NCBI RefSeq assembly: GCF_030684315.1
Contig: NC_081374.1
Span: forward strand, 31,036,630 to 31,100,629
Direction of reading: 5' to 3'
Length of the DNA: 64,000 nt
Source of the DNA: Stegostoma tigrinum
Lineage: Eukaryota
Both the position numbers and the translations under genes were made by a program. Shown piece by piece: positions 6,027 to 46,374 of the stretch. Every line of letters starts with the position of its first letter. Position 1 is the first letter of the stretch. The notes below the pieces were generated by a model, which was given only the letters and a program-made list of their open reading frames with translations, was not told where the DNA came from and did not search any database.

Positions 6027-6104
6027 CTCCTGGCTGGCTATGTTTGAGCTGATGCCCAGTTGAGCTTTAAAAATTGTGCTGGCTTGATTGATCAAACTAC
6101 CAGT

Positions 6105-9277: not shown

Positions 9278-9781
9278 CTGTCGACACACACATACACACA
9301 AATGTCTGGCTTTTGATCTTGAATCAATCCACCAAATAGTGTTGACAATGGCTCAGGGAAATTGACTTTCAGATTGCGTTGTTTCAAAATTTCCAGAAAA
9401 CAGCCTGAAAACAGGATGTCTCTTTCTACCAAAACTCCATTTTTTCCAAACTCGTTTCTGTGACTTAATGCAGCTTAGCCACAAACTCGGACTGAGGCCA
9501 TAGTTCCATGTCTCACCAGCAGGAATTTTAAATGAGCATCTTCTGGAATTGAAACATTCATCTCCCTCTTGTGATCAAATATAGAGGCAGAAAATAGATA
9601 CATACCAATGACATTATTGACTTAGGCTTACAGATTTCCTTTCTGTTCAATTGAAATCTGAATTGATGTTTCAATTTTATTAGTTGTCCTTAAAACAAAG
9701 ACACACGTGTAATTTTTTAATAATTATTACCACTGGGAACTGGTTTATTTTCAGATATCAAATCAGCAGGCATGTTATGTA

Positions 9782-10958: not shown

Positions 10959-11199
10959 TATATATTATAGTCATGTCTGGTGGAATCATCTGACATGCCT
11001 TGGGTTGATTCACGAACACCAATCCTTCTTATTGGCATTAGTTTAACTAATTGATTTCAGGTGGAGAAGATACAGAGTTCCCTTACATATTCTTTGACAG
11101 AAATGAAGTTTAGTCTTGTTAAACAAAATAGGTTTATCACATAATAGTTACATTATATCTGAATTACATAAGAGTACTTTGTAGGGCCTTAAGCGATCC

Positions 11200-11522
11200 T
11201 GGGAAGGCAATGGCCCAGTGGTATTATCACTAGACTATTAATATGGAGATCCAGGTAATGTTCTAGAGACCTGCATTCGAATCACATCATTGCAAATGGT
11301 GAAATTTGAATTCAATAATGACCTAGAATTAAGGGTCTAATGATGACAATGAAGCAGTGTTGATTGTTAAGAAAAATTGATATGGTTCACTCGGAAAGGA
11401 AATCTACCATCTGTGTGACTCCAGATCCACAGCAATTTGGTTGACTCTTAGCTGCTCTCTGACCAATTAAGGATTGGCAATAAATGCTGACCTCAAAAGC
11501 AATGCCCACATCCTGTGAATTA
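11200..11522 (+). mobile_element. tRNA-headed SINE, DeuSINE/SacSINE1-like
   Basis: tRNA-like head (ggcccagtggta...ttcgaatc) and a central domain. The 3' tail ggcaataaatgctg...gcccacatcctgtgaat is shared with the LINE end at 63280-63330. Confidence 0.55.
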
Positions 11523-12299
11523 TTGTTTTTTAAAACACTTAAATAAGTCTGAATTGCTGTTACCAACTTGGCACTGAGCAGGAATAGAACCACCTTACTG
11601 GTTAGCTCTTCCCAGAAGTAGTCCTTTCATATCCTGATGGGTGGAACTCATCACATGATAGTTTAGTTAACCCTTTCAGGTAATAGCTGCCTTATAAAAC
11701 AAAGATCACATGGCTACGTTTGTTCCCAGGCACATGGTGTATACCAATATTCTTGATGACTTTAGAGAGAAGTAAGCACTGCAGGAGATAGAGTGCTTTA
11801 TTACCCCTTCCAACTTCATTTTCATTTAACTCCTTTCCCTCTCCCTCACCTTTGATGGTTTGCATTGCGCTTAACAGGCATTGCACACAAATTATTCAAT
11901 TGGAAACATGGATGATTTACTGGTGTTAGTGAACAGATGGATAAAAATATGACAGTGGAGTAAATACTAGAATCTATTATTAAGGATGTAATTACTGGGT
12001 AATTAGAAAATAATTGTGTGATTAGTCAACGTGGATTTATGAAAAGTGAGTTATATTTGACAATGGTAGACATTTTTGTGGGTGTGACTAACAAAATTGA
12101 TAAGAAGGAACCAGTGTATGTGCTGCATTTGGATTTTGAGTTTGCTCTTGATGAAGTCCTATATAGGAGGCTGGGACCAAAACTAAAACACAGGGAATGG
12201 GCCAAATATACTAGCATGGATGCAGGATTGGTTAATGGGAAAAATGCGGAGATTAGGAATAAATGTGTCATTTTCAGGTCAGCAGGCTGTACCAGTTGC

Positions 12300-12525
12300 A
12301 ATTGTTGACTTGCTTGCTGAGCTGGTAAGTTTGTTTGCAAACATTTTGTTGCCACACTAGATAATATCATCAGTGCACCTCCAGTGAAGCGTCGGTGTTC
12401 TGCCCCGCTTGCTATTTATGTGTCTCTGTTTGCTGGGTTGGTTGGCATCACTTCCAGATTTGTTGCTAAGTTGTTGGTAATTTGCGTCCGGCTCTACATG
12501 TTTGTTAATGGAGTTCCGGTTTGAG
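12300..12525 (-). mobile_element. Family D (Poseidon-type) PLE 3' end
   Basis: Visibly homologous to 6110-6330 (atcatcagtgc.cctccagtgaagcg..ggtgttctg). Confidence 0.75.
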
Positions 12526-12529
12526 GTTT

Positions 12530-12652
12530 GAAGTGAAGTTCACCTCACCTGACAAAGGAGCAGTGCTCAGAAAGCTTGTGATTTCAAATATAACCTGGTG
12601 TTATGTGACTTCTAACTTTGTCCACCCCAGTCCAATATTGCCACCTCAATAT
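12530..12652 (+). mobile_element. Family C PLE 3' end including tail
   Basis: ctgacaaaggagcagtgctcagaaagcttgtgatttcaaat...gtccaccccagtccaa matches 4150-4240 and the reverse complement of 3443-3560. Confidence 0.75.
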
Positions 12653-13651
12653 TTGTGTTGAAAGGGACCTGGGTGTCTGTTTGTTAGTATCTGAGATCTA
12701 AAAAGTAAGTGCAGCAAGCAATTTGTAAAGTAAGTGGGATGTTGACCTTTATTGCCAGAGGAATTGAGTACAGGAATGAAGAAGTCCATCTTCAATTGTA
12801 TGGAATACTCGTGAAACCACACCTGTAGTATTGTAAGCTTTTCTGCTTCCCTTACCATGGAGGAAGTGCAGCAGCAGCTCACCAGGCTGATTCCTGGGGT
12901 TGTGGGACTGTACTAAGAGGTGAGATTGGGAAAATTGCACCTGTATCCTCTGAAGTTTAAAAGAATGAATGGCTATTTCATAGAAATTCTCAAAATTCTT
13001 AGACAAATAGACAGTTTAGATGCAGAAAGGTCAATTTCCCCACCTCTGACACCCAGCAACACAGATTCAATAAAAAGAACAAGCCATTTAATACTAAGCT
13101 GAGGAGTTTTTTTATCACTCAGAGGGTGGTGAATCTTTGAAATTCTCAATCTCAAATGACAATGGGTGCTTAGATATTAAGTAAGTTCAAGACAAAGAAT
13201 GATAGATTTCGAGATACTAACAACTCCAATGGATCCAGGGATAATGTGGGCACATGGCGTTGATGTAGATGATGAGCCCTGAGCTGGATTGGTTCGAGGG
13301 GTTGAATGGCCCATTCCTGCTCTTATGTTCCTTTGTCCCATGTTCTGTGCAGCCAGTCATTCCATCCTTTTATCAGCTTACAAAATTGAAAAGCCAGGAA
13401 GTTATGCAAAATCATATCAACCTTTGCTAGATCGAGAGAACATTGGGCAACTTTTGTTTTCTATATTATTAAAAATGAGAGAAAGGTTGTTAAGTCGGGG
13501 GAAGGGAAGTTTGAAGGATGATGTATAAAATAATTGCTTTGAAAGGGTTAATGTTGGAGATTGTTACACTCCACCCAATTTGATGATGTCAGAATCTTTG
13601 GCTAAAGAAGCAGTCTAGCATGAGCTCCCAATGGATACCGATGTGTCTTTG

Positions 13652-13865
13652 ATAACAAAGTGTGGAGCTGGATGAACACAGCAGGCCAAGCAGCATCTCA
13701 GGAGCACAAAAGCTGATGTTTCGGGCCTAGACCCTGCATCAGAGAGGGTCTAGGCCCGAAATATCAGCTTTTGTGCTCCTGAGATGCTGCTTGGCCTGCT
13801 GTATTCATCCAGCTCCACACTCTGTTACTGTGGATTCTCCAGCATCTGCAGTTCCCATTGTCACA
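13652..13865. mobile_element. Miniature palindromic family A PLE insertion (non-coding)
   Basis: Inverted arms of ~85 bp centred on the hammerhead region; tail on the right. TSD gatgtgtctttg at 13640-13651 and 13866-13877. Confidence 0.88.
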
Positions 13866-14264
13866 GATGTGTCTTTGTTGGGTCCTGATAGTCTCTGTAA
13901 TTATGCCAAACTCATCAAGGTAACATGTACATTGTCACCATACATAAACAACATCTTGTGATTAAGAGAAGTGCCTCAACTTAACACGATGCATTCGTGG
14001 TTTATCATCTACCATTGGTAATGGATAGGTCCTTAAACTCAGTGTAGAGTGTTGGTACAGCAGTAAAATAGAAGCCTTCAGAGACCAGTGACATTGGAGG
14101 GGCTCGGGGTGCTTCTTTACCCTGCACAATGTTATTGTGATTTAGTAAGTTTCTGTTTCCTTTTGTAAGTTTCTATTAACTATTAGTTTTGTATTTTTGT
14201 TATAATGCTTCATCAGTGGGTTCTTTAATCTAATCTCGTTTGGTATAAGAAGTAGAGTGTTGAG

Positions 14265-14380
14265 GTCTCTGCGACACTATGGTAATCTCCCTACCATTGG
14301 ACCAGATGGCCTGGGTTCAACTCCCAAGTGCACCAGAGGTGTGTCATGACATTCCTGAACATTTTGTTTTAGAATATCTG
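14265..14380 (+). mobile_element. Short (~110 bp) tRNA-derived SINE
   Basis: A/B-box-like head (tggtaat...gggttcaactccc), ending agaatatct. Homologous to 15455-15548 and 16906-17020. Confidence 0.55.
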
Positions 14381-14391
14381 TAATGTTCAGA

Positions 14392-14742
14392 GGCGGCACA
14401 GCGGCTCAGTGGGTTAGCACTGCTGCCTCACAGCGCCAGGGACCCAGGTTCGATTCCACCCTCGGGCGACTGTCTGTGTGGAGTTTGCACATTCTCCTTG
14501 TGTCTGCCTGGGTTTCCTCTGGGTGCTCAGGTTTCTTCTCACAGTCCAAAGATGTGCAGGCTAGGTGGATTAGCCATGCTACATTGCCCATTATGTTCAG
14601 GGGTGTGTAGGTTAGGTGCGTTGGCCATGGTGGGGTTGCAGAGATGGGGTAGGGAGCTGGATCTGGGTGGGATGCTCTTCCGAAGTTTGGTGTGTTGTTG
14701 GGCCGAATGGCCTGTTTACACACTGTAGGGATTCTAATTCTA
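14392..14742 (+). mobile_element. HE1-type V-SINE
   Basis: tRNA head ggcggcacagcggctcagtgggttagc...ggttcgattcc, V-domain gtgtggagtttgcacattctcc, and CR1-derived tail gggccgaatggcctgttt...ctgtagggattcta. Confidence 0.88.
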
Positions 14743-14779
14743 GTCTTTGACGTGGGGCAGAATGCCACATTATAAGGCC

Positions 14780-15005
14780 TGAAGAAATAGGAACAGATGT
14801 GGTCCATTCAGCCCGTGAAGCCTGTTCTGCAATTCATTAAGACCATGGCTGATGTGATAACCCTCACATTCACTTTCCTGCCTTTTGCCGTAACTCTTGA
14901 TTCCCCTACTGATCATGAATATGTGCAAGGATTCTGTCCCCATGGCCATTCATAGCAAAGACTCACAACTTTGTAAGAGAAAAAAATTCCTCCTCATCTC
15001 AGTTT
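14780..15005 (-). mobile_element. CR1 LINE 3' end fragment
   Basis: Reverse-complement CR1 tail (ccattcagccc...aaattcctcctcatctcagttt). Confidence 0.7.
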
Positions 15006-15548: not shown

Positions 15549-15706
15549 TAATCCTGCGGGACCTTCGTATCTCCGATTTGAATCATCGCACCGCTGGTGG
15601 CCAGGCCTAGGCTCCAAACATTGGAACGTTTCCCCTTAAACCTCACTCACCTCCTTCATTACAATCTCTCTACTCTGCTTTGATCAACCAGGTTTGGTTC
15701 ACAGAG

Positions 15707-15867
15707 ATAATGGGAACTGCAGATGCTGGAGAATCCAAGATAACAAAGTGCGAAGCTGGATGAACATAGCAGGCCAAGCAGCATTTCAGGAGCACTTTTG
15801 TGAGATAGGAGCACTCCTGAGATGCTGCTTGGCCTGCTGTGTTCATCCAGCTTCACACTTTGTTATC
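15707..15867. mobile_element. Miniature palindromic family A PLE insertion in UBE2T intron 1
   Basis: Inverted arms, tail on the left, hammerhead core absent. TSD ttggt(t/g)cacagag at 15694-15706 and 15868-15880. Confidence 0.85.
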
Positions 15868-15977
15868 TTGGTGCACAGAGCCTGAGTGAGAGACCTTTAC
15901 AGTGATGTCTGCTGATGTGGTTTGTGGCTGTAACCCTCCCATTTGTGCTTTTGTTTGTGCTGCAGGTCAACTGCCAG

Positions 15978-16089
15978 ATGATGCAAAGAATTACCAGGTT
16001 AAAAAAAGAAATGCAGTTGTTGGCGAGCCAGCCTCCTCCTGGAGTCTCCTGTTGGCAAAATAATGACCAGATGGATGACTTACGAGCCC
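15978..16089 (+). CDS. UBE2T: UBE2T first coding exon: (M)MQRITRLKKEMQLLASQPPPGVSCWQNNDQMDDLRA
   Basis: Acceptor tgcag at 15965, tandem ATGs at 15978 and 15981, donor GTACGT at 16090. Closely resembles the vertebrate UBE2T N-terminus (MQRASRLKRELHMLATEPPPGITCWQ). Confidence 0.95.
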
Positions 16090-16395
16090 GTACGTTTCTT
16101 TTTGCACACTGGAGAGTCATGCTCAGCCTCCCCTTACCACAAGTATAATGTTAGCTAATCTTTAAAGCTGAAGCTCTGACTGTACAGTGGAATTTTGACA
16201 TTTATTTCCTTAATTTACTTTGTTCCCGATTAGTAACTGCAGACAGAATATTGTGGAGGCAACAACGGTCTGTCCACCCAGCTGGACAGTGGGCAAAAGG
16301 CCTGTGTCATCCTTTCTAGGGAAATGATTTTTTTGTAGCGCTCAACAAACCAACAGCCACCTTCACTCACGGTCAAGAGCCGCTGATTGTTCAGA

Positions 16396-16606
16396 GACAG
16401 TAGGATCTGCAGATGCTGGAGAATCTGAGATAACAAGGCATAGAGCTGGATGAACACAGCAGGCCAAGCAGCATCAGAGGAGCAGGAATGCTGATGTTTC
16501 AGGCCTAGACCCTCTGATGAAGGGTCTAGGCCAAATACGTCAGCTTTCCTGCTCCTGAGATGCTGCTTGGCCTGCTGTGTTCATCCAGCTCTACACCTTG
16601 TTACGG
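16396..16606. mobile_element. Miniature palindromic family A-related PLE insertion in UBE2T intron 2
   Basis: Arms fold around ctgatga, tail on the left. TSD gctga(t/c)tgttcaga at 16382-16395 and 16607-16620. Confidence 0.85.
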
Positions 16607-19187: not shown

Positions 19188-19257
19188 AGATTTTAGGAAG
19201 TGTTGATTCACCGTATGAAGGAGGAATATTTAACCTTGAAATTATTGTTCCTGAAAG
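19188..19257 (+). CDS. UBE2T: UBE2T coding exon 2: (Q)ILGSVDSPYEGGIFNLEIIVPE(R)
   Basis: Polypyrimidine tract plus cag acceptor, GTACAA donor. 70 nt, phase-compatible; contains the E2 PYEGG motif. Confidence 0.95.
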
Positions 19258-20444: not shown

Positions 20445-20717
<273 letters not shown>

Positions 20718-20937: not shown

Positions 20938-21163
20938 AAAGCAAAGTTGCTGGAAAAGCTCAGCAGGTCTGGCAGCATCTGTGGAGGAGAAAACAGAGTT
21001 AACGTTTCGGGTCCAGTGACCCTTCCTCAGAACTCACCGCACCTGAAACATTAACTCTTTAACTAAATGTTTTCTCCTCCACAGATGCTACCAGACCTGC
21101 TGAGCTTTTCCAGCAACTTTGCTTTTGTTCCTGATTTACAGCATCCACAGTTCTTTTGGTATT
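20938..21163. mobile_element. Miniature palindromic PLE insertion, family B
   Basis: Inverted arms aaagcaaagttgctggaaaagctcagc... and ...gctgagcttttccagcaactttgcttt, with a ~37-nt tail on the right. TSD tactccctaa(t/g)atct at 20923-20937 and 21164-21178. Confidence 0.85.
20996..21035 (-). ncRNA. Minimal type I hammerhead ribozyme motif (family B)
   Basis: GAGTT-CTGAGGA-A-GGGTC(ACTG)GACCC-GAAAC-GTT-AACTC: perfect 5-bp helix I and 5-bp helix II. Confidence 0.78.
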
Positions 21164-23837: not shown

Positions 23838-23936
23838 GGTGCCTGGAAGCCATCCCTTAATCTTGCTACTGTGTTAACTTCCATTCACTTATTGATGTCA
23901 GAACCTAATCCAGATGATCCTCTCATGGCTGATATT
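23838..23936 (+). CDS. UBE2T: UBE2T coding exon 4: [33 protein letters not shown]
   Basis: tctag acceptor, GTGAGT donor, 99 nt; contains the EPNPDDPL motif. Confidence 0.97.
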
Positions 23937-24899
23937 GTGAGTTAATTTCTTTTAAAAGATACTGTTTAGGTATGTAATAAATGTTGAGTCAACTCCTTGA
24001 AAAGTGAAAGCACTGTGATAGTGAGTAGAAAATGTGTAATGCATAAGTGAAGAGGACTGCAGGCTGACAAATGTTGGGAGCCTGTGGCAGAAAAATAGTA
24101 AAATGACAGATTAATAACTTTGAATAAAAGTATAATTCAGTTCTCAAACAGGTGTTGATACTCAAGTGAATGGAATGCTAAAGTAACAGAAGTAATTGCT
24201 GCTGCAGCAGCAGTAAGAATGATGTTAAGCCAATGTGGAAAAGACAGTGTCAGAGTATAGGGGTAGGAGAACCCCCATGACCTTCAGAATTAATTGAACC
24301 TTCATTGTGCCAACTCTTGTGAAAGTATAAGTGCAAGTTTAAATTGTACCCTTCTTTGTCCAGGTGAGTTGTTCAGATAGTATTAACAGTTACTATATAC
24401 AACTTAATGCAGCAGTTTTCATTGGCAGTTAAAGTTCTTTAAAAATAAAGAGAAAAAGGGCGAGATGTTGTTTACACAAAGCAAAACAACAGCAGTATTT
24501 ATTGTGCAGCAATTTCTGACAATTCAGAACTTATGGTATTTCTTTTAATCCATTGAATTTGCTAGCTTACTTATGCATTATTAATAGCAAACTTTATTAA
24601 CCCTCTTTTTCCATTTGAGATATAGATTACTCTTTATTAGCAAGAATCTGCTGGGCTTTTATTGGGAATAGTTGTTTGTGGAATTGGTGAGAGGTAGTTA
24701 CTTAAACTGAAAAGAAATACAGTTTGCACGTGGCTTGGTGGTACATATTAACTGAAAGAATTAGTCTAACTGCATAGATCTTGGCTTTCTAGTGAAAGTG
24801 CAGCTCTATGATTTGGTCGGACGATACGACTTCACGTTTTACCTTTTTATTTAGTATTGTGGATGGGAGCAAAATTCTGTAACGAAAAAAAATGATGGA

Positions 24900-25550: not shown

Positions 25551-26986
25551 CTGTTCCGAAAATAAACACGTGCAGTTTATTTTAACGCAATTATCATTGA
25601 TCAACGGTTATATAATAAAATTGCTTTCTTTCATGTTTCTTTCATATCATTTTAAAATGTAAAAATTAGTTTCAGCTCACAAAAATAGCTGCTCTTTGCC
25701 AAATAATTATACTTCAATAAAATCCTGGTGGAACAATTCTTGCCAGATGGTAGCATCAGAATTGTGTAATAAATTTTGAGATCACAACTGCACATATTGA
25801 TAAATGCTAAATAATTTCTCTATTACATTTATTTTGTTCACAATTGATAATCTACTCGAGTGCTCCCAATGAAAATATTTGTTATGATGCCAATCTTTTT
25901 GTTTGAAAATAGTTAGTCTAAACAACAATTATATTAATTAAATATTATAAATTGGTTGCATGTCTGTAGTTCTTCATTCAAGTTACTAGCTTTTGGAAAA
26001 GCGGTATACTGATTCCAGGCCTTTAGAGCCGTCTTTTTTTTTAAGCTCACAGAGGTCCTCTAGTGTTCCAAATTGCTATTACATAGTTTTGTACAAAATA
26101 ATTACTTCGTAGGACAAATGAGGTGTGACACAAAATAGCACTCTTGCACCGATTGATTGTGAAACAGCTAACTCGATTTACTTTTAATACACAAAACACA
26201 GATTTGAATTTTTTAAAAATAGTTTCAGAAAATTGAAGTTAAGCATAATAAATGTAAGTTGTCAAAAGAATGCAAGATTCTGTGAAATTCCGACAAGTTC
26301 ATTGGGCAATGCTAAACATGTACAAGTGCTGCATATGTTGCTTAACTTAAATTCAGCCTACAAAAAGTGAATTATTGAATAAGTTGAAATATGAATTGTT
26401 GATAAGTGGGTGGTAAATCTTTAGCCTTATCAATACATTACTGATTTTAATTAACACTAGATTTCATGGTGACTTTTTTTTGGCCCTTGGACCATGCTTA
26501 AATGGAATTAATCATCTCCACGAGTGTTTTATCATTAGAAATAATAAAGTTGATAACCTAAAATATCTTAAGCCTTTTCTCTTTTAGATTTTTGCAACTT
26601 TAGTTGTTACAAGACATTACATCTATTTTACTGATATGTACTTAATTCTTGATTGTTGGTATTTATGTGAGCATTTCTATTGTTTTATTTAAGTATGTAT
26701 AAATTTGTTTTTATATTGTAGTTGGAACTTTTTTCTGATAATTATAAGAATAAATTGTACGGAGCAATTTATTTTAATTGTAAGCAGTTACATTCTTTTC
26801 TATATCCTTCCAATGTTTTCAAGTTTTGGTGGAGACAGCCAACAAGCTGGTACTTGCCAATAGGCAAAGATCCCTCTTTGAATTGAGTGTATTTTCTATT
26901 CGTCTTTCAGTTGTACTACTAGCTAGTAAAATGCATTCTAAAGATAGAATCAACTGCTTAATATAGTTTTTCCTTTTTTGTTTCAG

Positions 26987-27076
26987 TCATCTGAATTCAA
27001 ATACAACAGACAGTCTTTTTTGGAAAATGCAAAACAATGGACATTAAAGTATGCGACACCAGCAAAAAAAGATGAG
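26987..27076 (+). CDS. UBE2T: UBE2T coding exon 5: SSEFKYNRQSFLENAKQWTLKYATPAKKDE
   Basis: Polypyrimidine tract plus ttcag acceptor, GTATGT donor, 90 nt. Matches UBE2T SSEFKYN...A.QWT. Confidence 0.95.
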
Positions 27077-28282
27077 GTATGTTTAAACTTTCTCAACTTG
27101 TGGGGCTATGGGTGAAATGTGTAAATTTGTATTCATGGGTCATGCCAAAACTGCTTTGTAAGTAACTGCAAAATGCACAAGGGCATAATTCCAAAATGGC
27201 TGCTTTTTTTTTCCTTTTGCGTCCACGACTGGTGGATGGCAACTTAGTTTGCAGGGAATTCAATTATACAGCTATGGTTTAAAGGTTTATACCTGTGAAC
27301 TTATGAAATAAAAACCATAAAACACCAATGAAAAGCTCACCATCTTGGTTAATAAAAATTGTTTCAAAACAGTAAAAATTATTGATCCAACATTTTTTCC
27401 TATACTCAAAAATTAAAAACATATACTACTTAGTAGTTCAGAGATAATGGGAACTGCAGATGCTGGAGATTCCAAGATAATAAAATGTGAGGCTGGATGA
27501 ACACAGCAGGCCAAGCAGCATCTCAGGAGCACAAAAGCTGACGTTTCGGGCCTAGACCCTTCATCAGAGAGGGGGATGGGGGGAGGGAACTGGAATAAAT
27601 AGGGAGAGAGGGGGAGGCGGACCGAAGATGGAGAGCAAAGAAGATAGGTGGAGAGGGTGTAGGTGGGGAGGTAGGGAGGGGATAGGTCAGTCCAGGGAAG
27701 ACGGACAGGTCAAGGAGGTGGGATGAGGTTAGTAGGTAGCTGGGGGTGCGGCTGGGGGTGGGAGGAAGGGATGGGTGAGAGGAAGAACCGGTTAGGGAGG
27801 CAGAGACAGGTTGGACTGGTTTTGGGATGCAGTGGGTGGGGGGGAAGAGCTGGGCTGGTTGTGTGGTGCAGTGGGGGGAGGGGATGAACTGGGCTGGTTT
27901 AGGGATGCAGTGGGGGAAGGGGAGATTTTGAAACTGGTGAAGTCCACATTGATACCATATGGCTGCAGGGTTCCCAGGCGGAATATGAGTTGCTGTTCCT
28001 GCAACCTTCGGGTGGCATCATTGTGGCAGTGCAGGAGGCCCATGATGGACATGTCATCAAGAGAATGGGAGGGGGAGTGGAAATGGTTTGCGACTGGGAG
28101 GTGCAGTTGTTTGTTGCGAACTGAGCGGAGGTGTTCTGCAAAGCGGTCCCCAAGCCTCCGCTTGGTTTCCCCAATGTAGAGAAAGCCGCACCGGGTACAG
28201 TGGATGCAGTATACCACATTGGCAGATGTGCAGGTGAACCTCTGCTTAATGTGGAAAGAGGTTCACCTGCACATCTGCCAAT

Positions 28283-28708
28283 GTGGTATACTGCATCCAC
28301 TGTACCCGGTGCGGCTTTCTCTACATTGGGGAAACCAAGCGGAGGCTTGGGGACCGCTTTGCAGAACACCTCCGCTCAGTTCGCAACAAACAACTGCACC
28401 TCCCAGTCGCAAACCATTTCCACTCCCCCTCCCATTCTCTTGATGACATGTCCATCATGGGCCTCCTGCACTGCCACAATGATGCCACCCGAAGGTTGCA
28501 GGAACAGCAACTCATATTCCGCCTGGGAACCCTGCAGCCATATGGTATCAATGTGGACTTCACCAGTTTCAAAATCTCCCCTTCCCCCACTGCATCCCTA
28601 AACCAGCCCAGTTCATCCCCTCCCCCCACTGCACCACACAACCAGCCCAGCTCTTCCCCCCCACCCACTGCATCCCAAAACCAGTCCAACCTGTCTCTGC
28701 CTCCCTAA
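28283..28708 (+). CDS. Uninterrupted PLE GIY-YIG endonuclease domain (5'-truncated, no RT); mirror copy at 27792-28217 (-)
   Basis: VYCIHCTRCGFLYIGETKRRLGDRFAEH...H...EQQLI...GIN. No ATG start; expression not shown. Confidence 0.6.
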   Translation: MVYCIHCTRCGFLYIGETKRRLGDRFAEHLRSVRNKQLHLPVANHFHSPSHSLDDMSIMGLLHCHNDATRRLQEQQLIFRLGTLQPYGINVDFTSFKISPSPTASLNQPSSSPPPTAPHNQPSSSPPPTASQNQSNLSLPP

Positions 28709-28932
28709 CCGGTTCTTCCTCTCACCCATCCCTTCCTCCCACCCCCAGCCGCACCCCCAGCTACCTACTAACCTCATCCCACCTCCTTGACCTGTCCGTC
28801 TTCCCTGGACTGACCTATCCCCTCCCTACCTCCCCACCTACACCCTCTCCACCTATCTTCTTTGCTCTCCATCTTCGGTCCGCCTCCCCCTCTCTCCCTA
28901 TTTATTCCAGTTCCCTCCCCCCATCCCCCTCT

Positions 28933-28960
28933 CTGATGAAGGGTCTAGGCCCGAAACGTC
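28933..28960 (+). ncRNA. Minimal hammerhead motif (family A), sense to the UBE2T pre-mRNA; mirror copy at 27540-27567 (-)
   Basis: CTGATGAAGGGTCTAGGCCCGAAACGTC. Confidence 0.75.
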
Positions 28961-30124
28961 AGCTTTTGTGCTCCTGAGATGCTGCTTGGCCTGCTGTGTT
29001 CATCCAGCCTCACATTTTATTATCTACTTAGTAGTTCAATCAGTTTAATAGAAAATCTGGTTCTGGTCCAGCTAGGGCAAGAAAGGTGCAAGGTTGCTGC
29101 CTTGTTTGTATCCGAGTTAACCAGTGTCAGTTAGAGATAGGTTACATGTTACATGGCTGATATCAGTTTTGGTTCAGTTTGGTGAAAGGAATGAGCCAGA
29201 CTTCCCGTTCCTAACTTCTATTTGTTAATTTTTGCAGCGGTGTGTTGATATCAAGATGTTGGACAAGACTGTGGCATACTCTGGCTTAGCTTTAACACCT
29301 TCTGTTTGAATAGTTTAGCAATTCACTATCAACTTTAAATCATAAATGGTTATGTGGAGAGAAAATTAATAACAATAAATGCTGATTCATGGAGAACTAT
29401 CGTCATCATCAGAATGCAAGAGAAAGGAGTAAAATAAGTATTTTTTTGTAACAAAGGTCTTGCGTCTCTCCTTTTCAAACCCGGAAAGCTTTAAGCTTAT
29501 GTTGTTGTCCTTTAGTTAAAACACCTTCTGCTTATGTAATAAATTTTGTGACCGCATGCTGTCAATCTAACAATGGCATTGTGTGTGATGTTTTCCAAGA
29601 CCTATGCAGTCAGATAATTCTTTCAGTCAACATGTATCTCCAAGCCACATGCGAACTATTTCTCTTCAGTTTAAGTAACTACCTCTCACCAATTCCACAA
29701 ACAACAACTATTTCCGATTAAAGGCACAGCAGATACTTGCTAATAAATAGTAGTATAAATCTCAATTAGAAAAAGAGGGTTAATAAAGTTTGCTATCAAT
29801 AATGCATTAATGAGCTAGCAAGTTCAATGGATTAAAGGAAATTCCATAGTTCTGAATTGTTGGTTGCTGCTGTCATTTTGCTTTTGTAAACAACATCTCC
29901 CCATTTGTCTGTTTTTTTAAGAACTTTAACTACCGATGGAAACTGCTGCATTAAATTGTGTATAGCAACTGTTAATGCTATCTGAACATCCTGCTTGGCC
30001 AAAGAAGGGTACAATTTGAACTTGCACTTATACTTTGAGTAAAGTTGGCACAATGAAGGTTCAATTGAATTAGTTCCTAAGGTCATGGGGATTCTTCTAT
30101 GATGAGAGGCTATACAAATGCTCA

Positions 30125-30515
30125 CTCTTCATAGTGATTGGAAGAATGAGAGGCAATCTTTTTGAAACGTTCAAGATTTCTGAGGGACCTTAATGGAGTG
30201 AATGCTGAAGGATTGTTTCTGCTGGTCAAGGAGTCTAAAACATAGGAACATAATCTTCGGATATGATGCTGATGGTTTAGGACTGAACTAAGAAATTGTT
30301 TCACTCAAGTCATTGTGAATCTTCATAGTTCCATGTATCAGAGTTGCACATGTTCCTTCATTTAATGCATTTCAAGCTGGGTTAAACAGATTTTTGGTGT
30401 CTTGGGGATTAAAGGATATGTAAAGTAGGCAGCACAATGGAGTTGAAGCCCAGAACAGGTGTGCTCATAGGTCATGGTAGGGCATATGGTTCACTCCTCC
30501 TCCAATTCCTTGAGT
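30125..30515 (+). mobile_element. CR1 LINE 3' fragment
   Basis: agaatgagaggcaatctttttgaaac...agaaattgtttcactcaa...ctcctcctccaattcctt. Confidence 0.75.
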
Positions 30516-30891
30516 GCTATTCTGTCTCCTGTATATGATAAAGTATGAGATTTTTAGAAACTATCTTTCTGTCCCAGACTTAACAAATTCAAGATCTTAT
30601 TTTGTTGTTCTACTCAAGCAAGATAAAATTGCATGTGCATGCCAGACTACTCGACTTCTGTGAATTGAGCATTACCGCCAAAGTATAACTTGCACACTAT
30701 GTGGCGTGTGTGTGTATATGCAGTGGGGGTTTGGAGTTTTGCAAACAATGTGACATTTATTTGGCAATATCACAATTCTACTTTTCACTAAGTAGCGTTG
30801 CTCAATGACTTAAGTTTACACACAACAGAAGTGGGATGAGTAAGCCTGGGCCTAAATGGATGACTTGAAACCTTTTTATTCCTTATTTTAG

Positions 30892-31026
30892 ATATCTAGC
30901 TGCCTGAAGGAGAATCAGAGCCATGTTGAAGACCAGAATCAGAGCCAGGTTGTGAATAAGAATACACCAGTATCGAGAAAGAGATCTGCCTGTGATTCTG
31001 AAAATGCTAAGAAATTTTGTTTATAA
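30892..31026 (+). CDS. UBE2T: UBE2T last coding exon: ISSCLKENQSHVEDQNQSQVVNKNTPVSRKRSACDSENAKKFCL*
   Basis: Strong acceptor (cctttttattccttattttag), phase 0 matches the previous exon. RKR...KKF basic tail resembles UBE2T C-termini. Stop TAA at 31024-31026. Confidence 0.85.
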   Translation: MSSCLKENQSHVEDQNQSQVVNKNTPVSRKRSACDSENAKKFCL

Positions 31027-31135
31027 ATAATGTGGTACTTGTATTTGTGTTTTGATGTTATCTTTTAAAGTTTTTGTAACTAACCTGTAAATTTGTTGCT
31101 TATGTGTTTTCATAAATGTAGTTTTTGGAAATGAC

Positions 31136-31141
31136 AATAAA
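31136..31141 (+). promoter_or_regulatory. Candidate polyadenylation signal of UBE2T
   Basis: First AATAAA downstream of the stop codon, about 110 nt after it. Confidence 0.5.
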
Positions 31142-33339
31142 TTACCAATTGGTGGTGACCAAGAAATATGATGAGTAAATGATTTATTTTTCTCTGCAGG
31201 TGCTGCTCAATATTTCCAGTATTGTTTTTATTTTAGGTTTGCAGCACCTGTGGTATTCTGACTTTTTACTAAATTGAATAAGTCTTTGAGGTGCTTGGAC
31301 TGAATTATCTTGATCACTGCTATAAATTTATGATTGTGTGTGCAGATGTCTGCTCCTGACCTATTTTAATAAGAGGGCAGGGAAGGATTGGAGTTTACCA
31401 CTTACGCAGGGCATGAAGACAGCCAGAGAGGTAGGGATTCCAATACTAGTTGTTCTCTGGCAATAGGGTAATATTACCAAAGTAACAAAGCCAGTTGAGT
31501 GACGATGATTCCTTTCACCACCTCACTAACAAATATTTGACCTGAAGTGGAATGGGGCCAGAAACTCAGCATGGAATTTCATGCTGAGTTTGTCTTTTAT
31601 GTCCAGATGGAACCTAAACATTCAATCCTAAGCATACCTCTTTAAATTATGCTATGACATTCTTAAGCAGTATAAAAACTCGTAAGGGCACTTTCCATTC
31701 TTAAACTATCAAGAGGATTGAGAAGAATACCATATGTGATTTGGTGTTGATAGGAAAGTAGGCAGGTACCCCAAGACCAAAAACAATGTGCAACATAATG
31801 AGGACAGAAATGTCTGCAGTTGTGAGGCCTATACAGAGATTGGAACCAGCTCAACGTGTCATGAGATGCCCTAGAACCAGGACACAGAACAGAATGCAAC
31901 TGATATAAAATCTCAGTTGGGGGTGACTGGCAGCTATCCTAAGACTCACTGAGGCAACGGGCACCAGTGTACAGTGATATTAGGAAATACTGACTTCTTT
32001 TTTCTAGTAAAACTTCAAAATTGCCAAGCTTCAAGAGAAGACTTAGTAAAGAGTGACAGTATTTAGGAGAAAAACAGTTAATTGCATTAATAGGTAGTAT
32101 TGGTTGATGCCTTGATGATAGCATTTTCTTTCTTTTGTGTTTTAGTAGTAGTTCTCTTTGGTTGATAACTTCAACTGAAGCCATTAGAATTTTGACATCC
32201 TTTGCTGTGTAATGTAGATTGGATCAAAAAACCAAATTTTGTAGCAGCCGGTTCCACACAATCCCATATGAATTAATTTCAGTCATCCAGCAGAACAAAG
32301 CATTCATTAAATCAGTGAAAGCTTCATTAAATAATTTTACAAATAAAACAAATCTGGCAAAAACTTAAAACCATATGTGGCGTAATAGAACGCATGTCAA
32401 GTTAACAGTGTACTAAGCAAAACAAACTACTTCATATGTTGTCTTTAGTCTGCTGATCCTTCTGTTGTGCCAGTGAATAACCTGACGTTAGTCTACTTGT
32501 TTAGCTACCAATTCCAAAACGGAACCAAACTGGTAAGAGGGAAAACTGAATTGAAATGTTTTTGGGAAGTATTTGTGGGAGAGGAGGGGGGGGAAAAAAA
32601 AGAGAATTTGGTAACTCTTTGAAAAATGATTTGAGAATCAACTCTCAAACATGACTAAATTAGAAATATTAAACTCACATGCCAGGTCATTCATAGCAGC
32701 TTGAACCACAGACATCTTATGAAATTGATCACTGCAGTAAAACAGGAAATAACATTAGCTTTTGCAAATTAAGTTGTTGCTGGCTTGAACATCCAGCAAT
32801 TAAACTTCTTGTTTGACCATGGGTGGTGGGGGGGGGGGGGGGGGGGTGAAGAAATACTGAAAAGCAAGTTTCAAAACATTGCTTCAACAATCTGCAAAGT
32901 GTTGTTTTTCAAAAGTGTGGGAACAGATCTGTAAAATCTGATTTGCCTGATAATTGTGTCATGTGATGCGCTCCAGGAGAAATAACCTTCTATTAGGCTA
33001 TGTGACAAATCTGCATCATACAACCTGTCAGAACTATGCCAATAATTGTGAAGAAAGGTGAATAAAAGTGAGAACTTTAATTTTCGAGGTCATGCCCTTA
33101 TTAAAAGCCTGAAGATTCAATTGTAGCGCACTATCTAACCATAATCTAATTTGAGCAGCCGAGGTGGGGGGCGGGGGGGTTGTGGGTCAGTCCTTCAGCC
33201 CATAATTGCTCATGAAATAGATATGTTCAGTGGTATCCTCTGGAACTGACCCAACTTAAGTTGGATTATTATTTAGTTGTAGTGTGACAGCTAACTCACG
33301 TACTGTATTTTATTGTGACTTTTAGCAGTTTATTACCTC

Positions 33340-36477: not shown

Positions 36478-38625
36478 CAACACCCTGGCAACATCCCTGT
36501 AAATCTTTTGTGAACCCTTTCAAGTTTCACAACATCCTTTCTTTAGCAGAGAAACCAAAAGTACATGCAGTATTCCAAAAGTGGCCTAACCAATGTCCTG
36601 TACAGCTGCAGCCTGACCTCCCAATTCCTGTATTCAATGCACCGATCAATAAAGGCAAGCATACCAAACGCCTTCTTTACTATCCTATCTACCTGCGACT
36701 CCACTTTTAAAGAACTATGAACCTGCACCCCAAGGTCTCTTTGTTCAGTAATACTCCCCAGGATCTTACCATTAAGTGTATAAGTCCTGTCCTGGTTTGT
36801 CTTTCCGAAATGCAGCACTTCACATTTATCTAAATTAAAGCCCATCTGCCACTCCTTCGCCCATTGGCTCATCTGATCAAGATCCTGTTGTACTCTGGGG
36901 TAACGTTCTTTGCTGTCCACTAAACCTGCTATTTTGGTATCATCTGCAAACTTACGAACTATATCTCCTATATTCACATCCAAATCATTTATATACATGA
37001 TAAAGAACAGTGAACCCAGCACCGATCCTTACAGCACACCACTAAGCATTGGCCTCCAGTCCAAGAAGCGATCCTCTGCCACCAGCCTCTGTCGTCAACC
37101 TTTGTGCTAATTTTGTATCCAAATAGCTAGTTCTTTCTGTATTCCATGTGATCTAACCCTGCTAATCAGTCTACCATGACGAACCTTGTTGATTGCCTTA
37201 CTTAAGTACATATAGAGCACGTCCATCCCTTTGCCTTCATCAATCCTCTTCGTTACGTCTTCAGAAATCTCAATCAAGACACAATTTCCCATGCACAAAG
37301 CCACATTGACTATCTCTAATCAGTCCTTGCCTTTCAAAATACATGTAAATCCTTGCCCCCAGGATTCCCTCCAACAACTTGCCCACTGCCAATGTCAGGC
37401 TCAGAAGTCTACTCTCCCTGGCTTTTCATTACCACGTTCTTAAATAGTAGCACCACATTGGTCAATTTCCAGTCTTCCAGCTCTGCACCTGTGACTGTTG
37501 ATGGTACGGATGGCGCTGTAATCACTTCCCTAGCTTCCCACAGAGTTCTTAGGTACACCTGATCAGGTCCAGGGTTTTATCCACCGTTATAAGTTTTAAG
37601 ATGCCTAGCACCTTCTTCTCTGTAGTATGGGCATTTTTCAAGTTATCATTATTTATTTCCCACATTCTATATCTTGCTTACCCTTGTCCACCACAAACAC
37701 TGACGTAAGATACTTGTTTAGTATCTCCTCCATCTCCTGCAGTTCCACACATAGGCAACCTTGCTAATCTTTAAGGGGACGTATTCTCTTTCTAGTCACC
37801 CTTTTGTCCTTAATGTATTTGTAGAATCACCTTGAAGTCTCCCTAATCCTATTTACCAAAACTATCTCACGTTCCATTTTTACCCTCCTGATTTCCCTCT
37901 TAAGCATACTGCTGCACTTATATTCTTCTAGGGATTCACTTGATCCCTGCTGTCTATACCTGACATATGCTTCCTTCTTTTTCTTGACAAACACCTCAAC
38001 TTCTGTAGTCACCCAGCATTTCCTACGCTTACCAACCTTGCCCTTCACCCTAACAGGAACGTACTGTCTCTGGACTCTTGTTGTCTCATTTTTGAAGGCT
38101 TCCCATTTTCCAGGCATTCCTTTACCAACAAACATCTTCCCCCAATCAACTTTTGAAAGTTCTTGCCGAATACTGTCAAAATTGGCCTTCCTCCAATTTA
38201 GAACTTTAAATTTAGATCCGGTCTATCCTTTTCCATCACTGTTTTAAAACTAAGAGAATTATGGTCACTGGCTCCAAAGTGCTCCCCCACTGACACCTCA
38301 GTCACCTGCCCTGCCTTATTTCCTAAGAGTAGGTCAATTTTTGCACCTTCTCTGGTAGGTACATCCACATACCGAATCAGAAAATGTTCTTGTGCATACT
38401 TAACAAATTCCTTTCCATCCAAGTCCTTAAAACTATGGCAGTCCCAGCCTATGTTTGGAAAATTAAAATCCCCTACAATAACCACCTTATTATCCTTACA
38501 GATAACTGGAATCTCCTTACAAATTTCTCAATTTCCTGCTGACTATTGGGGGGTCTATAGTACAAGCCCAATAAGGTGATCAACTCTTTCTTCAAACCCT
38601 ATTTCTCAGTTTCACTGAAATAACT
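36478..38625 (-). mobile_element. CR1 LINE ORF2 fragment (APE endonuclease end plus RT)
   Basis: VGDFNFPNI, DLLLGN, SDHN (endonuclease); YINDLD, KFADDTK, LYRTLVRPLLEYC (RT). Confidence 0.92.
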
Positions 38626-43388: not shown

Positions 43389-44403
43389 ATTGGCAAGATC
43401 TGCTGCTTTACGTTTTTAATAGTCATTTTTTAAAAAACATGCTTATTTAAATTAGCTGTGTATTGTTTTGAAATTAATCACTTTTGTGCCAAACATTATC
43501 TTTCTAAAATTTCTTCACCCGAGTGCAAGAACATTTAGAATGTGCTCTTCCCATGCAAAAATGTTGGACACGACTGTATTACATAAACTTGCTAATTATA
43601 TCTTGTAATTAGCAATGTGGTATGTTGCCTTTATGTTTAATTGCTTTGGTGGACTTGAGTTTGAGAAGTTGTGGATATGTAGGTACCTAAATTGGTTTCT
43701 TTTAAAAGAGTCCATTGAAAGGATAATGGAACTTCTTTTCTTTAATTCGGCAAATCTTAGAGCCCCTATATTTCCAGGAGATTATCAGGCATCGTTGCTC
43801 GAACTCAGTTCAGGAAATAAAAATCTGGCATTTTGCAACTGGGCTTATGACTTTTCTGCTTGAAGAATGTTTTGCAGGCTTGGAATTTCAGTTGTGGGTG
43901 CCTGATCTAAAAAGGAGCTGCTCAGCTGATGTCTCCTGTTTCTGAAGCATACTTGAGGTGAATCCAGTCTGAAACATGATTGTCCTCCTGAAAATTGACT
44001 GGAACACTTCATAATACTATGTTTCCTGAGTAAGGTATGTCTGCAAATATCCCAGAGACAGCTGATTATGTTTTGTGAGCCTGTCTACTGCTGCCAGAAT
44101 ATTCACATGACATCTTTATTCTTCTTACATTCAAGAACGAAGACTGTTTTGAAAAAGTGTGTATTTTCCAAATTGATTGCCTGCAGAGTAAAATATCATT
44201 TTCCCATTGCCAATTTATGTTTGTCTATACCTTGAGTTATTTAGAGAGGTAATCTATATTTTTATGTCGTAAACTAAGTGTTACCCAGTTTTAAAGCGGA
44301 TGAGCTTATTAATGAAACTAGTTGAGTGTTTTGTTTTAAGTAGAATGTAAGTGGAGCAATTGTTTGACCAAGTTTGGAACCAGGCAAAACCATTAAATAT
44401 AAG

Positions 44404-45343
44404 AGATAATGGGAACTGCAGATGCTGGAGAATTCCAAGATAATAAAATGTGAGGCTGGATGAACACAGCAGGCCAAGCAGCATCTCAGGAGCACAAAAG
44501 CTGACGTTTCGGGCCTAGACCCTTCATCAGAGAGGGGGATGGGGAGAGGGAGCTGGAATAAATAGGGAGAGAGGGGGAGGCGGACCGAAGATGGAGAGTA
44601 AAGAAGATAGGTGGAGAGAGTATAGGTGGGGAGGTAGGGAGGGGACAGGTCAGTCCAGGGAAGACGGACAGGTCAAGGAGGTGGGATGAGGTTAGTAGGT
44701 AGCTGGGGGTGCAGCTTGGTGTGGGAGGAAGCGATGGGTGAGAGGAAGAACCGGTTAGGGAGGCAGAGACAGGTTGGACTGGTTTTGGGATGCAGTGGGT
44801 TGGGGGGAAGAGCTGGGCTGGTTTTGTGGTGCAGTGGGGGGAGGGGACGAACTAGGCTGGTTTAGGGATGCAGTAGGGGAAGGGGAGATTTCGAAATCTC
44901 CCCTTCCCCTACTGCATCCCTAAACCAGCCTAGTTCGTCCCCTCCCCCCACTGCACCACACAACCTGCCCAGCTCTTCCCCCCCACCCACTGCATCCCAA
45001 AACCAGTCCAACCTGTCTCTGCCTCTCTAACCGGTTCTTCCTCTCACCCATCCCTTCCTCCCACACCAAGCTGCACCCCCAGCTACCTACTAACCTCATC
45101 CCACCTCCTTGACCTGTCCGTCTTCCCTGGACTGACCTATCCCATCCCTACCTCCCCACCTATACTCTCTCCACCTATCTTCTTTACTCTCCATCTTCGG
45201 TCCGCCTCCCCCTCTCTCCCTATTTATTCCAGCTCCCTCTCCCCATCCCCCTCTCTGATGAAGGGTCTAGGTCCGAAACGTCAGCTTTTGTGCTCCTGAG
45301 ATGCTGCTTGGCCTGCTGTGTTCATCCAGCCTCACATTTTATT
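44404..45343. mobile_element. Family A PLE palindrome with spacer-less centre
   Basis: Centre gagatttc|gaaatctc at 44892/44893. TSD accattaaatataag at 44389-44403 and 45344-45358. Tail on the left. Hammerhead motifs at 44503-44530 (-) and 45255-45282 (+). Confidence 0.93.
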
Positions 45344-46374
45344 ACCATTAAATATAAGTTTTGGCCATGGAATAGCAGGATTAAAGAAAAACAGTGCACT
45401 CTCCCTTCTCAGGCATAGAAAAGAATGTCAATGTGATCTTTTTCAATGGTTGTCAATCAATCCCTTTTACCTAGAAATTGAACAATTAAACACGGGTGAA
45501 TGTCTCCTTACGGTTGTGAATTGTTTTATAATATGTATAAAAGTGTAAAATCTGAAATAAAAAAGATATTTTTATGCTTGTCAAAAGCAAATTATTGCAA
45601 ATGCTAGAGACCTCAAATTAAAATAGAAAGTATTGGAACGCTCATCAGGTATGGAAGCATCTGTGGAGAGAATCAGAACTAATATTTCAGCCCATATGGC
45701 TTATTTGGATGACCTCCTCATCTCCATTTACTAGCTTCTCTTTTCACAACTTTTCTTTCATAACCCAATTTTTCTTTCCACTCTATGTCCTTTCTCTTCA
45801 TTGTTCACTTCTCACTCCAATCCATCAGAAGCAAACTGTAATTTAAATAAAAGGAGATTTTTATTTGGACCGAAATGTTTGTTTTAGAAATGTTTTTGAA
45901 TGCCTCTAAGGCCGAGAAAGAGGGGACATAGGTTCTCAAATCTGACACTGGGAAACTTAATGATAGAGGTCATTGGAAGGAGGAATATCCTATATCTGCA
46001 GAGGAGATCGCCACTTGCCCTCCATCAACAACAGCTTCTAAGCTTGGTTCATGTCCTCCTCCATTCCTCATCCAATCCAAGAGAGGCCCTCAGTAGTATT
46101 CCATGACAAAATATTCCCATTTGCCCAGTTGATTCCCAAGACATAGAATGGCACATCCATTTTATATGAAATCCTGAGAGAACTCCCAGAAGGAATATTG
46201 TTAGAATTTTGGGTATTTGTTGAAAAGGATCATGGAAAATTAACCAGTTGCTGCAGAGATCTTCTTAATGGTTATGACGAAGGTTCATGATCTGTAAATT
46301 TGTGTTATTATTTGGAAACTTGTGTTCCACTGTTGACAGAATCACTTGGATATTTTTGAGTTCAACTTTCTTTT

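What the first reader, a model, noticed from the sequence alone, without database searches (positions are those of the whole stretch)
27441..29023. A ~770 bp near-perfect RNA hairpin in the last intron of UBE2T that would mask its own ribozyme
Seen: the palindrome begins 365 nt after the donor at 27076. I found no mismatch between the arms by eye, so it is very young. Inference: each UBE2T pre-mRNA can fold a long dsRNA, a substrate for ADAR, Dicer or dsRNA sensors and a possible source of endo-siRNA against the whole PLE family. The sense hammerhead at 28933 is transcribed after its antisense copy (27540) and would be trapped in duplex, which could make the insertion harmless to the host transcript. 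As DNA, it is a potential cruciform or fragile site within a Fanconi-pathway repair gene.
Basis: partly seen in the sequence, partly recalled or inferred. Interest (0 to 1): 0.72.

Follow-up and report, generated by a model that had tools for sequence, protein, structure and literature searches.

The report
Young Penelope-like palindromic insertion in UBE2T
The perfect 769-base mirror repeat in the last intron of UBE2T is a very recent jumping-gene insertion, missing from another sample of the same species and built the same way as about a third of this element's sampled copies, so the RNA hairpin it is predicted to form is likely a by-product of how the element lands and not a safety device.

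Summary
In detail: arms 27475-28243 and 28257-29025, 769 nt, 0 mismatches, 13-nt spacer, inside UBE2T's last intron (27077-30891). It is one insertion of a Neptune-type Penelope-like element (PLE): two 5'-truncated copies head to head, a 34-nt 'tail' on one arm only, and a 15-bp target-site duplication. A contig from another sequencing run of the species carries the exact empty site, so the insertion is polymorphic. The layout is published for PLEs and common here: 84 of 256 sampled insertions are such pairs, roughly 160,000 genome-wide. The hairpin is predicted to pair all 28 hammerhead bases. But the motif is a minimal, dimer-type core with no intact partner in this transcript, and two-thirds of sampled copies lack an adjacent mirror arm, so 'masking makes it harmless' has no support. 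ADAR editing and fork stalling are plausible from the literature, untested here. The useful part is mechanistic. The tail lies on either the longer or the shorter arm (17 vs 24), and inner ends often meet within 25 nt (7 of 17 long pairs). That fits both target ends priming reverse transcription. The scan noted this pattern before in two other genomes.

The parts
27426..27440 (+). Left copy of the 15-bp target-site duplication
   Evidence: present once in the empty-allele contig
27441..27474 (-). 34-nt PLE 'tail', on this arm only, unpaired in the hairpin
   Evidence: one tail in 77 of 84 pairs
27475..28243 (-). Left arm: antisense 5'-truncated PLE (endonuclease 3' part plus pseudo-LTR)
27540..27567 (-). 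Antisense copy of the minimal hammerhead core
27795..28256 (-). Open C-terminal GIY-YIG endonuclease fragment with CCHH residues; no start, no RT
   Evidence: PF01541 E 2.5e-4, 21.7 bits, just under the 22.6 cut-off
28244..28256 (-). 13-nt spacer: element sequence present in the left arm only (inner ends at element positions 1 and 14)
28257..29025 (+). Right arm: sense 5'-truncated PLE without the tail
28933..28960 (+). Minimal type I hammerhead core; helix II 4 bp, helix I 2 bp, no helix III loop; predicted cut after 28960
   Evidence: Sequence; no Rfam hit at gathering score
29024..29038 (+). Right copy of the 15-bp target-site duplication; first 2 nt shared with the arm end
26987..27076 (+). 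UBE2T fifth coding exon (exon 6 by recalled human numbering)
27077..30891 (+). UBE2T last intron, host of the insertion
   Evidence: Splice junction in X15 and X16 contigs
30892..31152 (+). UBE2T last exon (stop at 31024-31026; 3' end at least to 31152)

Best explanation
This is one recent, polymorphic insertion of a Penelope-like retrotransposon, two truncated copies head to head inside a 15-bp target duplication, likely made when both cut ends of the target DNA primed reverse transcription, and its predicted RNA hairpin is likely a by-product with no role of its own. Shown: target duplication, exact empty allele, tail on one arm, identical sister copies elsewhere with their own centres, and the same layout in a third of sampled insertions. 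Inferred steps: (1) the element's endonuclease nicks both strands about 15 bp apart; (2) one 3' end primes at the outer start site (arm with tail) and the other at a site about 34 nt inside (arm without tail), either one on either side; (3) the centre is closed by a template switch with 0-2 nt overlap, either a first cDNA folding back or one cDNA jumping onto the other's end, which often leaves a spacer of 25 nt or less. In the UBE2T pre-mRNA of carriers the arms would pair and probably be edited by ADAR in the nucleus; the hammerhead would be inactive with or without pairing. Confidence is about 0.95 for identity, youth and by-product status, and about 0.6 for the two-ended priming route.
For: Anatomy. 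Empty allele: one 3,415-nt contig of run X1 covers 26400-27440 with letters 657-1697 and 29024-29694 with letters 1-671; the overlap is the 15-nt target, once. A 2,138-nt contig of X2 also runs 110 letters past 27440 without the element. Frequency: 84 pairs and 172 singles from 340 arms in 1.624 Mb. One tail in 77 of 84 pairs; duplications found in 40 of 48 young pairs, 29 of them 13-16 bp. Of 44 young one-tail pairs, the tail arm reaches further inward in 17, the tail-less arm in 24, equal in 3. A lone fold-back copy cannot gain a tail its template lacks. Inner ends within 25 nt in 7 of 17 long pairs, 4 of 14 outside the window, against 0.039 for random pairs (p 0.0017). Sister insertion L158 on another contig has one arm 100% identical to the focal copy over 547 nt, arms 515/2, its own centre and its own 14-bp duplication. 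A lizard PLE protein nicks and extends both target strands from two RNA start sites that bracket the tail, and is predicted to be a dimer (PMC11167929).
Against: The in vitro data are for a Poseidon element; this family has the Neptune/Nematis CX4CxxC linker. No run laid showed the filled allele (contigs show presence only), so it rests on the assembly. 10 of 17 long pairs are strongly asymmetric (90 to about 1,000 nt), so no single centre rule fits all. 3 of the 7 near-symmetric pairs come from the window chosen for this finding, and one (L124) lies near a possible subfamily alignment edge. 7 of 84 pairs have two tails or none. In the tree, arms of one insertion are sisters in 4 of 9 pairs with both arms present (only 1 at full support), identical in the focal pair, and unresolved in the other 4; the bootstrap had not converged. 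Antisense self-priming followed by endonuclease trimming can also put the tail on either arm.
Confidence: 0.65

Rival explanations
1. Same insertion, but the mirror arm is made by self-priming of an antisense RNA that folds back at its 3' end; the endonuclease then trims the ends and leaves the tail on either side (proposal in PMC3846280 and PMC8557442).
For: Explains head-to-head orientation and short spacers (7 of 17 long pairs). Overlaps of 4 nt or more occur at 4 of 47 young centres against about 1.4% by chance; one centre is a perfect 8-bp palindrome (44889-44896).
Against: 43 of 47 young centres have 3 nt of overlap or less, and 24 have extra bases, which is little stem for self-priming (edges blurred by up to 12% divergence from the reference). 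In vitro the tail equals the distance between two reverse-transcription start sites on sense RNA.
Confidence: 0.18
2. One reading: the hairpin protects UBE2T by masking an otherwise active ribozyme, or is a significant source of siRNA against the family.
For: All 28 core bases are paired in the predicted fold and the antisense arm is transcribed first. PLE repeats are heavily edited in lizard.
Against: Dimer-type core, no intact partner in the transcript, alternative fold on its own. 172 of 256 sampled insertions have no adjacent mirror arm. The site is empty in run X1. Thousands of similar hairpins exist.
Confidence: 0.06
3. Ordinary one-ended priming followed by the cDNA folding back and copying itself, with no priming at the second target end.
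For: Fits the focal copy: the tail arm is 13 nt longer inward, with a 2-nt overlap against the longer copy.
Against: Predicts that the inward-longer arm always has the tail; the tail-less arm is longer in 24 of 41 unequal pairs and in 5 of 7 near-symmetric long pairs (4918-6029, L041, L124, L141, L158).
Confidence: 0.05
4. Near-symmetric centres or perfect arm identity arose after insertion, by trimming of the hairpin loop or gene conversion between arms.
For: Long palindromes with short spacers are unstable in other organisms.
Against: The youngest copies already show it (focal, L158, 4918-6029 with 0, 2 and 1 mismatches), and unlinked copies share the focal arm's two distinguishing bases, so conversion is not needed.
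Confidence: 0.04
5. The palindrome is an assembly artefact (fold-back read or mis-join).
For: No junction-spanning contig for the filled allele was listed in X1, X2, X5 or X10 (list cut); all local contigs seen lack the element.
Against: An exact 15-bp duplication of a site that is single in the empty allele, the one-sided tail, and 83 other pairs of the same build with varied ages. X1 differs from the window at several flank positions, so it is another haplotype.
Confidence: 0.02

Closest known systems
Complex insertions of endonuclease-bearing Penelope-like elements: inverted 5'-truncated copy, 30-40 bp tail at one end, target duplication (PMC3846280; PMC8557442)
   Same: Head-to-head inverted copy, 34-nt tail on one end, target duplication, hammerhead in the pseudo-LTR, C-terminal GIY-YIG with CCHH.
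   Different: Both arms here run about 470 nt into the endonuclease coding region and meet within 13 nt, giving a 1.58-kb near-perfect palindrome; duplications are mostly 13-16 bp against 8-10 bp in the rotifer examples read; copy number is in the hundreds of thousands.
Neptune clade PLEs (CX2-5CxxC linker; PMC8557442)
   Same: CX4CxxC motif upstream of GIY-YIG in 26 matches among sampled family copies; RT upstream of the endonuclease.
   Different: Clade not tested by RT phylogeny; Nematis shares the linker. No microsatellite targeting was looked for; duplicated targets are 66% A+T.
Anolis Poseidon element PAc (PMC11167929)
   Same: Tail of similar length, AT-rich targets, hammerhead at the pseudo-LTR; its two start sites and two-strand extension predict the layout seen here.
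   Different: Different clade; the parts of the paper read do not explain how inverted pairs form or how the centre is joined.
Minimal PLE hammerheads (PMC4209133)
   Same: Conserved core, short helix I, palindromic helix III without a loop.
   Different: This family's motif has not been assayed; Rfam does not detect it at gathering score.
LINE-1 twin priming and inverted Alu pairs (twin priming recalled; Alu fork stalling from PMC7999016)
   Same: Second target end primes cDNA and gives an inversion; close inverted repeats form RNA duplexes and stall forks.
   Different: LINE-1 inversions cover non-overlapping parts of the RNA, so no palindrome results. Inverted Alu pairs come from two separate insertions and close ones are depleted in human (PMC3215922, search listing only).

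Membership tests
Endonuclease-bearing Penelope-like element | C-terminal GIY-YIG endonuclease with CCHH residues | tested here: met
   PF01541 E 2.5e-4, 21.7 bits vs cut-off 22.6; two Cys inside the core and two His read in the translation
Endonuclease-bearing Penelope-like element | Reverse transcriptase upstream in the same ORF | tested here: inconclusive
   Absent from the truncated focal copy; the 93%-identical longer copy at 57723-59900 has an RT fragment, PF00078 E 0.0024, below cut-off, in broken frames
Endonuclease-bearing Penelope-like element | Telomerase-like RT placed in the PLE clade by phylogeny | not tested
Endonuclease-bearing Penelope-like element | Inverted truncated copy, 30-40 bp tail at one end, target duplication | tested here: met
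   34-nt tail, 15-bp duplication, empty allele; 77 of 84 pairs with one tail
Neptune clade | CX2-5CxxC motif between RT and endonuclease | tested here: met
   26 motif matches in family copies, including the window's long copy; definition; lies upstream of the focal truncation point
Neptune clade | RT groups with Neptune rather than Nematis | not tested
   Linker motif is shared by both clades
Penelope/Poseidon clade | Linker Zn-finger absent | tested here: not met
   Motif present
Minimal type I hammerhead | CUGANGA and GAAA core, helix II, NUH cut site | tested here: met
   28933-28960
Active monomeric hammerhead | Stable helices I and III | tested here: not met
   Helix I 2 bp, helix III without loop; predicted fold is another hairpin, 72% of the ensemble for the 46-nt piece
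Active monomeric hammerhead | Self-cleavage in vitro | not testable with these tools
   Bench assay needed
Hairpin endo-siRNA or hyper-edited locus | 21-22 nt RNAs or A-to-I clusters from this locus | not testable with these tools
   No small-RNA or raw RNA run was listed

The most novel reading that the evidence does not exclude
This genome holds an active Neptune-type element whose insertion step routinely builds DNA palindromes: both target ends prime reverse transcription at start sites 34 nt apart, and the two cDNAs are often joined at nearly the same element position. About 160,000 such pairs, some 20,000 with arms of 290 nt or more and a few thousand long near-perfect ones, would record the unresolved second half of PLE integration. 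They would also show a vertebrate genome carrying a load of tight inverted repeats that is depleted in human. This polymorphic UBE2T copy, with filled and empty alleles, allows an allele-matched test of editing, splicing and breakage.
Probability: 0.5. Interest if true: 0.5.

Novelty: new member of a known kind. Interest (0 to 1): 0.27.

Why it matters
As a single locus it matters little: a young intronic insertion that some haplotypes lack. As a sample of its family it bears on an open question, how PLEs finish integration and why they leave inverted copies with one tail; PMC8557442 and PMC11167929 both call these steps undefined. The counts here rule against the simplest fold-back route and favour priming from both target ends. 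A filled/empty pair of alleles in an expressed gene is also a ready control for asking whether a perfect 769-bp intronic duplex changes splicing, editing or local stability.

Tried and rejected
Rfam scan of the window: 0 hits at gathering score. Genome search with an arm piece returned nothing because common words are skipped, so I sampled fixed stretches instead. Idea that two bases (element positions 503 and 621) are private to the focal arms, which would have shown a shared single template: rejected, L016 and L125 carry both. Idea of local hopping around the window: arms at 99% identity or more number 3 in 264 kb nearby and 4 in 1,360 kb elsewhere, too few to decide. Idea that the hairpin matters by hiding poly(A) signals: 2 AATAAA lie in the insertion but 6 more lie elsewhere in the same intron. 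My first guess, Poseidon clade, was dropped. First exon coordinates were off by 1-2 nt and gave stops; corrected. The script ended with a file-writing error after all results were printed. Literature searches for Penelope + twin priming + inverted (2 papers listed, neither on PLEs by title or abstract start) and shark + Penelope + palindrom + elasmobranch (0) found no description; searches likewise listed none on this family. The library lacks most subscription papers.

Full report
Observation. The palindrome is real. The arms are 27475-28243 and 28257-29025, 769 nt with 0 mismatches, around a 13-nt spacer. Its first 34 nt have no partner, and a 15-bp direct repeat flanks it at 27426-27440 and 29024-29038. 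The host gene is UBE2T (E 8e-20 against 3e-14 for the next E2 enzyme). Six coding exons (15981-16089, 19188-19257, 20504-20609, 23838-23936, 26987-27076, 30892-31026) give an open 202-aa frame. Contigs from two small runs of the same species label (X15, X16; kind not on record, exon-only cover suggests RNA) join the end of the 26987-27076 exon to 30892, and one stops at 31152. So the host intron, 27077-30891, is the last one. The genotype of those two samples is unknown; X16 shares the flank variant at 31129 with the empty haplotype. The organism is likely a shark (recall; the genome is 3.2 Gb; not tested).

What the arms are. Each arm is the 3' part of a Penelope-like element (PLE): the end of a GIY-YIG endonuclease frame (PF01541, E 2.5e-4, just under the cut-off), a pyrimidine-rich stretch and a hammerhead core. 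A 93%-identical longer copy at 57723-59900 carries an RT fragment. Family copies have a CX4CxxC motif upstream of the endonuclease (26 matches), which marks Neptune or Nematis and excludes Penelope/Poseidon (PMC8557442, passages). An inverted truncated copy with a 30-40 bp tail at one end and a target duplication is the published PLE layout (PMC3846280, passages; PMC8557442, passages).

Age. One 3,415-nt contig of run X1 covers 26400-27440 with its letters 657-1697 and 29024-29694 with letters 1-671. The 15 shared letters are the target, present once: an exact empty allele. Its depth (24.8) is like the neighbouring contig's (23.1). X1 differs from the window at a few flank positions, so it is another haplotype. 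No listed contig shows the filled junction; the list was cut and contigs show presence only, so the filled allele rests on the assembly. Two other sampled copies match the focal arm at 100%: L016, about 72 kb away, over 571 nt, and L125 on another contig over 547 nt. L125, completed as L158, is itself a palindrome (arms 515 matches, 2 mismatches; inner ends 18 nt apart; own 14-bp duplication). The mirror arm is therefore built anew at each insertion and is not inherited from a palindromic master.

How common. I sampled 156 stretches of 10 kb at fixed positions on 8 large contigs (20 of them beside the window) plus the window, 1.624 Mb; this is not a random sample. BLAST hits reaching the element's 3' end gave 340 arms: 84 head-to-head pairs and 172 singles (pairs cut by a stretch edge count as singles, and the window's old pair at 9781-10957 was not called). 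Outside the window there are 78 pairs in 1.56 Mb, about 160,000 genome-wide (126,000-200,000), and 11 with arms of 290 nt or more, about 22,600 (11,000-40,000). Long near-perfect pairs with a spacer of 25 nt or less number 2 outside the window (L141, L158), roughly 4,000 genome-wide (500-15,000, my arithmetic). The window has three (4918-6029, the focal one, 44403-45344; 1, 0 and 8 mismatches). UBE2T's first introns hold two short pairs (15704-15871, 16394-16603). The focal copy is at the long, perfect end of a common class.

Mechanism. Of 84 pairs, 77 have one tail, 3 have two and 4 none. Among 47 young (88% identity or more), directly joined pairs, 44 have one tail; the tail arm reaches further inward in 17, the tail-less arm in 24, and 3 are equal (no bias, p 0.35). 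If one cDNA simply folded back and copied itself, the longer arm would be the template and would always hold the tail. A second priming event is needed, or end trimming. Among long pairs (an inner end upstream of element position 650), 6 of 13 have inner ends within 25 nt. Of 8 stretches fetched to complete edge-cut copies, 4 gave further long pairs, 1 of them near-symmetric. That gives 7 of 17, or 4 of 14 without the window, against 0.039 for random pairs of inner ends (p 0.0017). The other 10 are asymmetric by 90 to about 1,000 nt. Centres show little overlap: 17 of 47 overlap (4 by 4 nt or more), 6 are blunt and 24 have extra bases. Short copies start mostly at element positions 680-699, the 5' edge of the hammerhead (38 of 94 paired ends, 24 of 72 young singles), not at its cut site after 717; this may mark an RNA 5' end (inference). 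A purified lizard Poseidon protein nicks and extends both target strands, starts at two RNA sites that bracket the tail, and is predicted to be a dimer (PMC11167929, main text read as parts 1-2 of 4). I infer that both target ends prime, one with and one without the tail, and that a template switch closes the centre (about 0.6). Antisense self-priming with endonuclease trimming (PMC3846280) remains the main rival. The tree of 39 arms places the two arms of an insertion as sisters in 4 of 9 pairs, one at full support, identical in the focal pair, and leaves the rest unresolved; the bootstrap had not converged.

Folding the insertion gives all 769 arm pairs and pairs 28 of 28 hammerhead bases, so in carriers a long duplex is expected. 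Editing is plausible: a lizard Penelope element has over 40,000 edited sites and elephant shark brain shows heavy hyper-editing (PMC5625713, passages). Fork stalling is plausible: inverted Alus with a 12-bp spacer stall forks in primate cells (PMC7999016, passages). Neither could be tested; no RNA holder was listed. The masking idea lacks support. The core has a 2-bp helix I and no helix III loop, and on its own folds into a different hairpin. One minimal PLE hammerhead showed no cleavage as a monomer and low cleavage as a dimer (PMC4209133, passages). The lizard one needed protein and was not required for insertion. Only one intact sense core lies in the UBE2T span, so no dimer can form within the transcript. 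Two-thirds of sampled insertions have no adjacent mirror arm. An intron duplex would stay nuclear, which makes cytoplasmic sensing unlikely (general knowledge). As an siRNA source the copy is one of thousands.

Novelty. The layout is known. Earlier notes of this scan report the same pattern in two other genomes (unchecked AI notes, seen after my analysis). I found no paper that describes this family's palindromes or applies two-ended priming to PLE inverted pairs, within a library that lacks most subscription journals. I read no supplements; those of PMC11167929 (genomic insertion ends) may bear on the mechanism. Verdict: a real but ordinary young insertion; modest interest for what the family's junction statistics say about PLE integration.

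Noticed in passing
window 24264-24784 and 29595-30099: An older inverted duplicate, 82% identical over 530 nt, brackets the second-last UBE2T exon and the new insertion. It has no other copy in 1.62 Mb sampled and lies outside the insertion. It could loop out that exon in the pre-mRNA.
   Followed up: partly
window 4918-6029 and 44403-45344: Two more long near-perfect head-to-head pairs with 16- and 15-letter duplications called. Three in 64 kb against two in 1.56 Mb elsewhere suggests a local excess.
   Followed up: partly
window 44889-44896: The centre of this pair is a perfect 8-bp palindrome with no spacer, created by a variant base; it fits annealing of two identical cDNA ends better than a loop.
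   Followed up: partly
window 9781-10957, 13651-13862, 15704-15871, 16394-16603: Older or shorter pairs of the same build; the last two lie in UBE2T's first introns, and the sense hammerhead at about 16515 has a damaged GAAA.
   Followed up: partly
L016:5711-6281 (G000:C25, about 72 kb from the focal copy): A single tail-bearing copy 100% identical to the focal arm over 571 nt, with no mirror arm.
   Followed up: partly
family-wide, element positions 680-699 (window 28923-28942 on the right arm): Hotspot of 5' ends at the front of the hammerhead, with a smaller group at 715-729 near the predicted cut site; may mark a transcript start or splice acceptor.
   Followed up: partly
window 57723-59900 (-): Longer copy of the same family with RT, linker and endonuclease in broken frames and no tail.
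   Followed up: partly
window 30911-30958: A 24-nt tandem duplication (75% alike) inside the coding part of UBE2T's last exon.
   Followed up: no
window 21001-21030 (-): A hammerhead-like core of a different repeat family in a UBE2T intron, antisense to the gene.
   Followed up: no
window 213-2026 and 36546-38222 (-): Decayed LINE-like reverse transcriptase fragments (CR1/L2 type by recall; translations).
   Followed up: no
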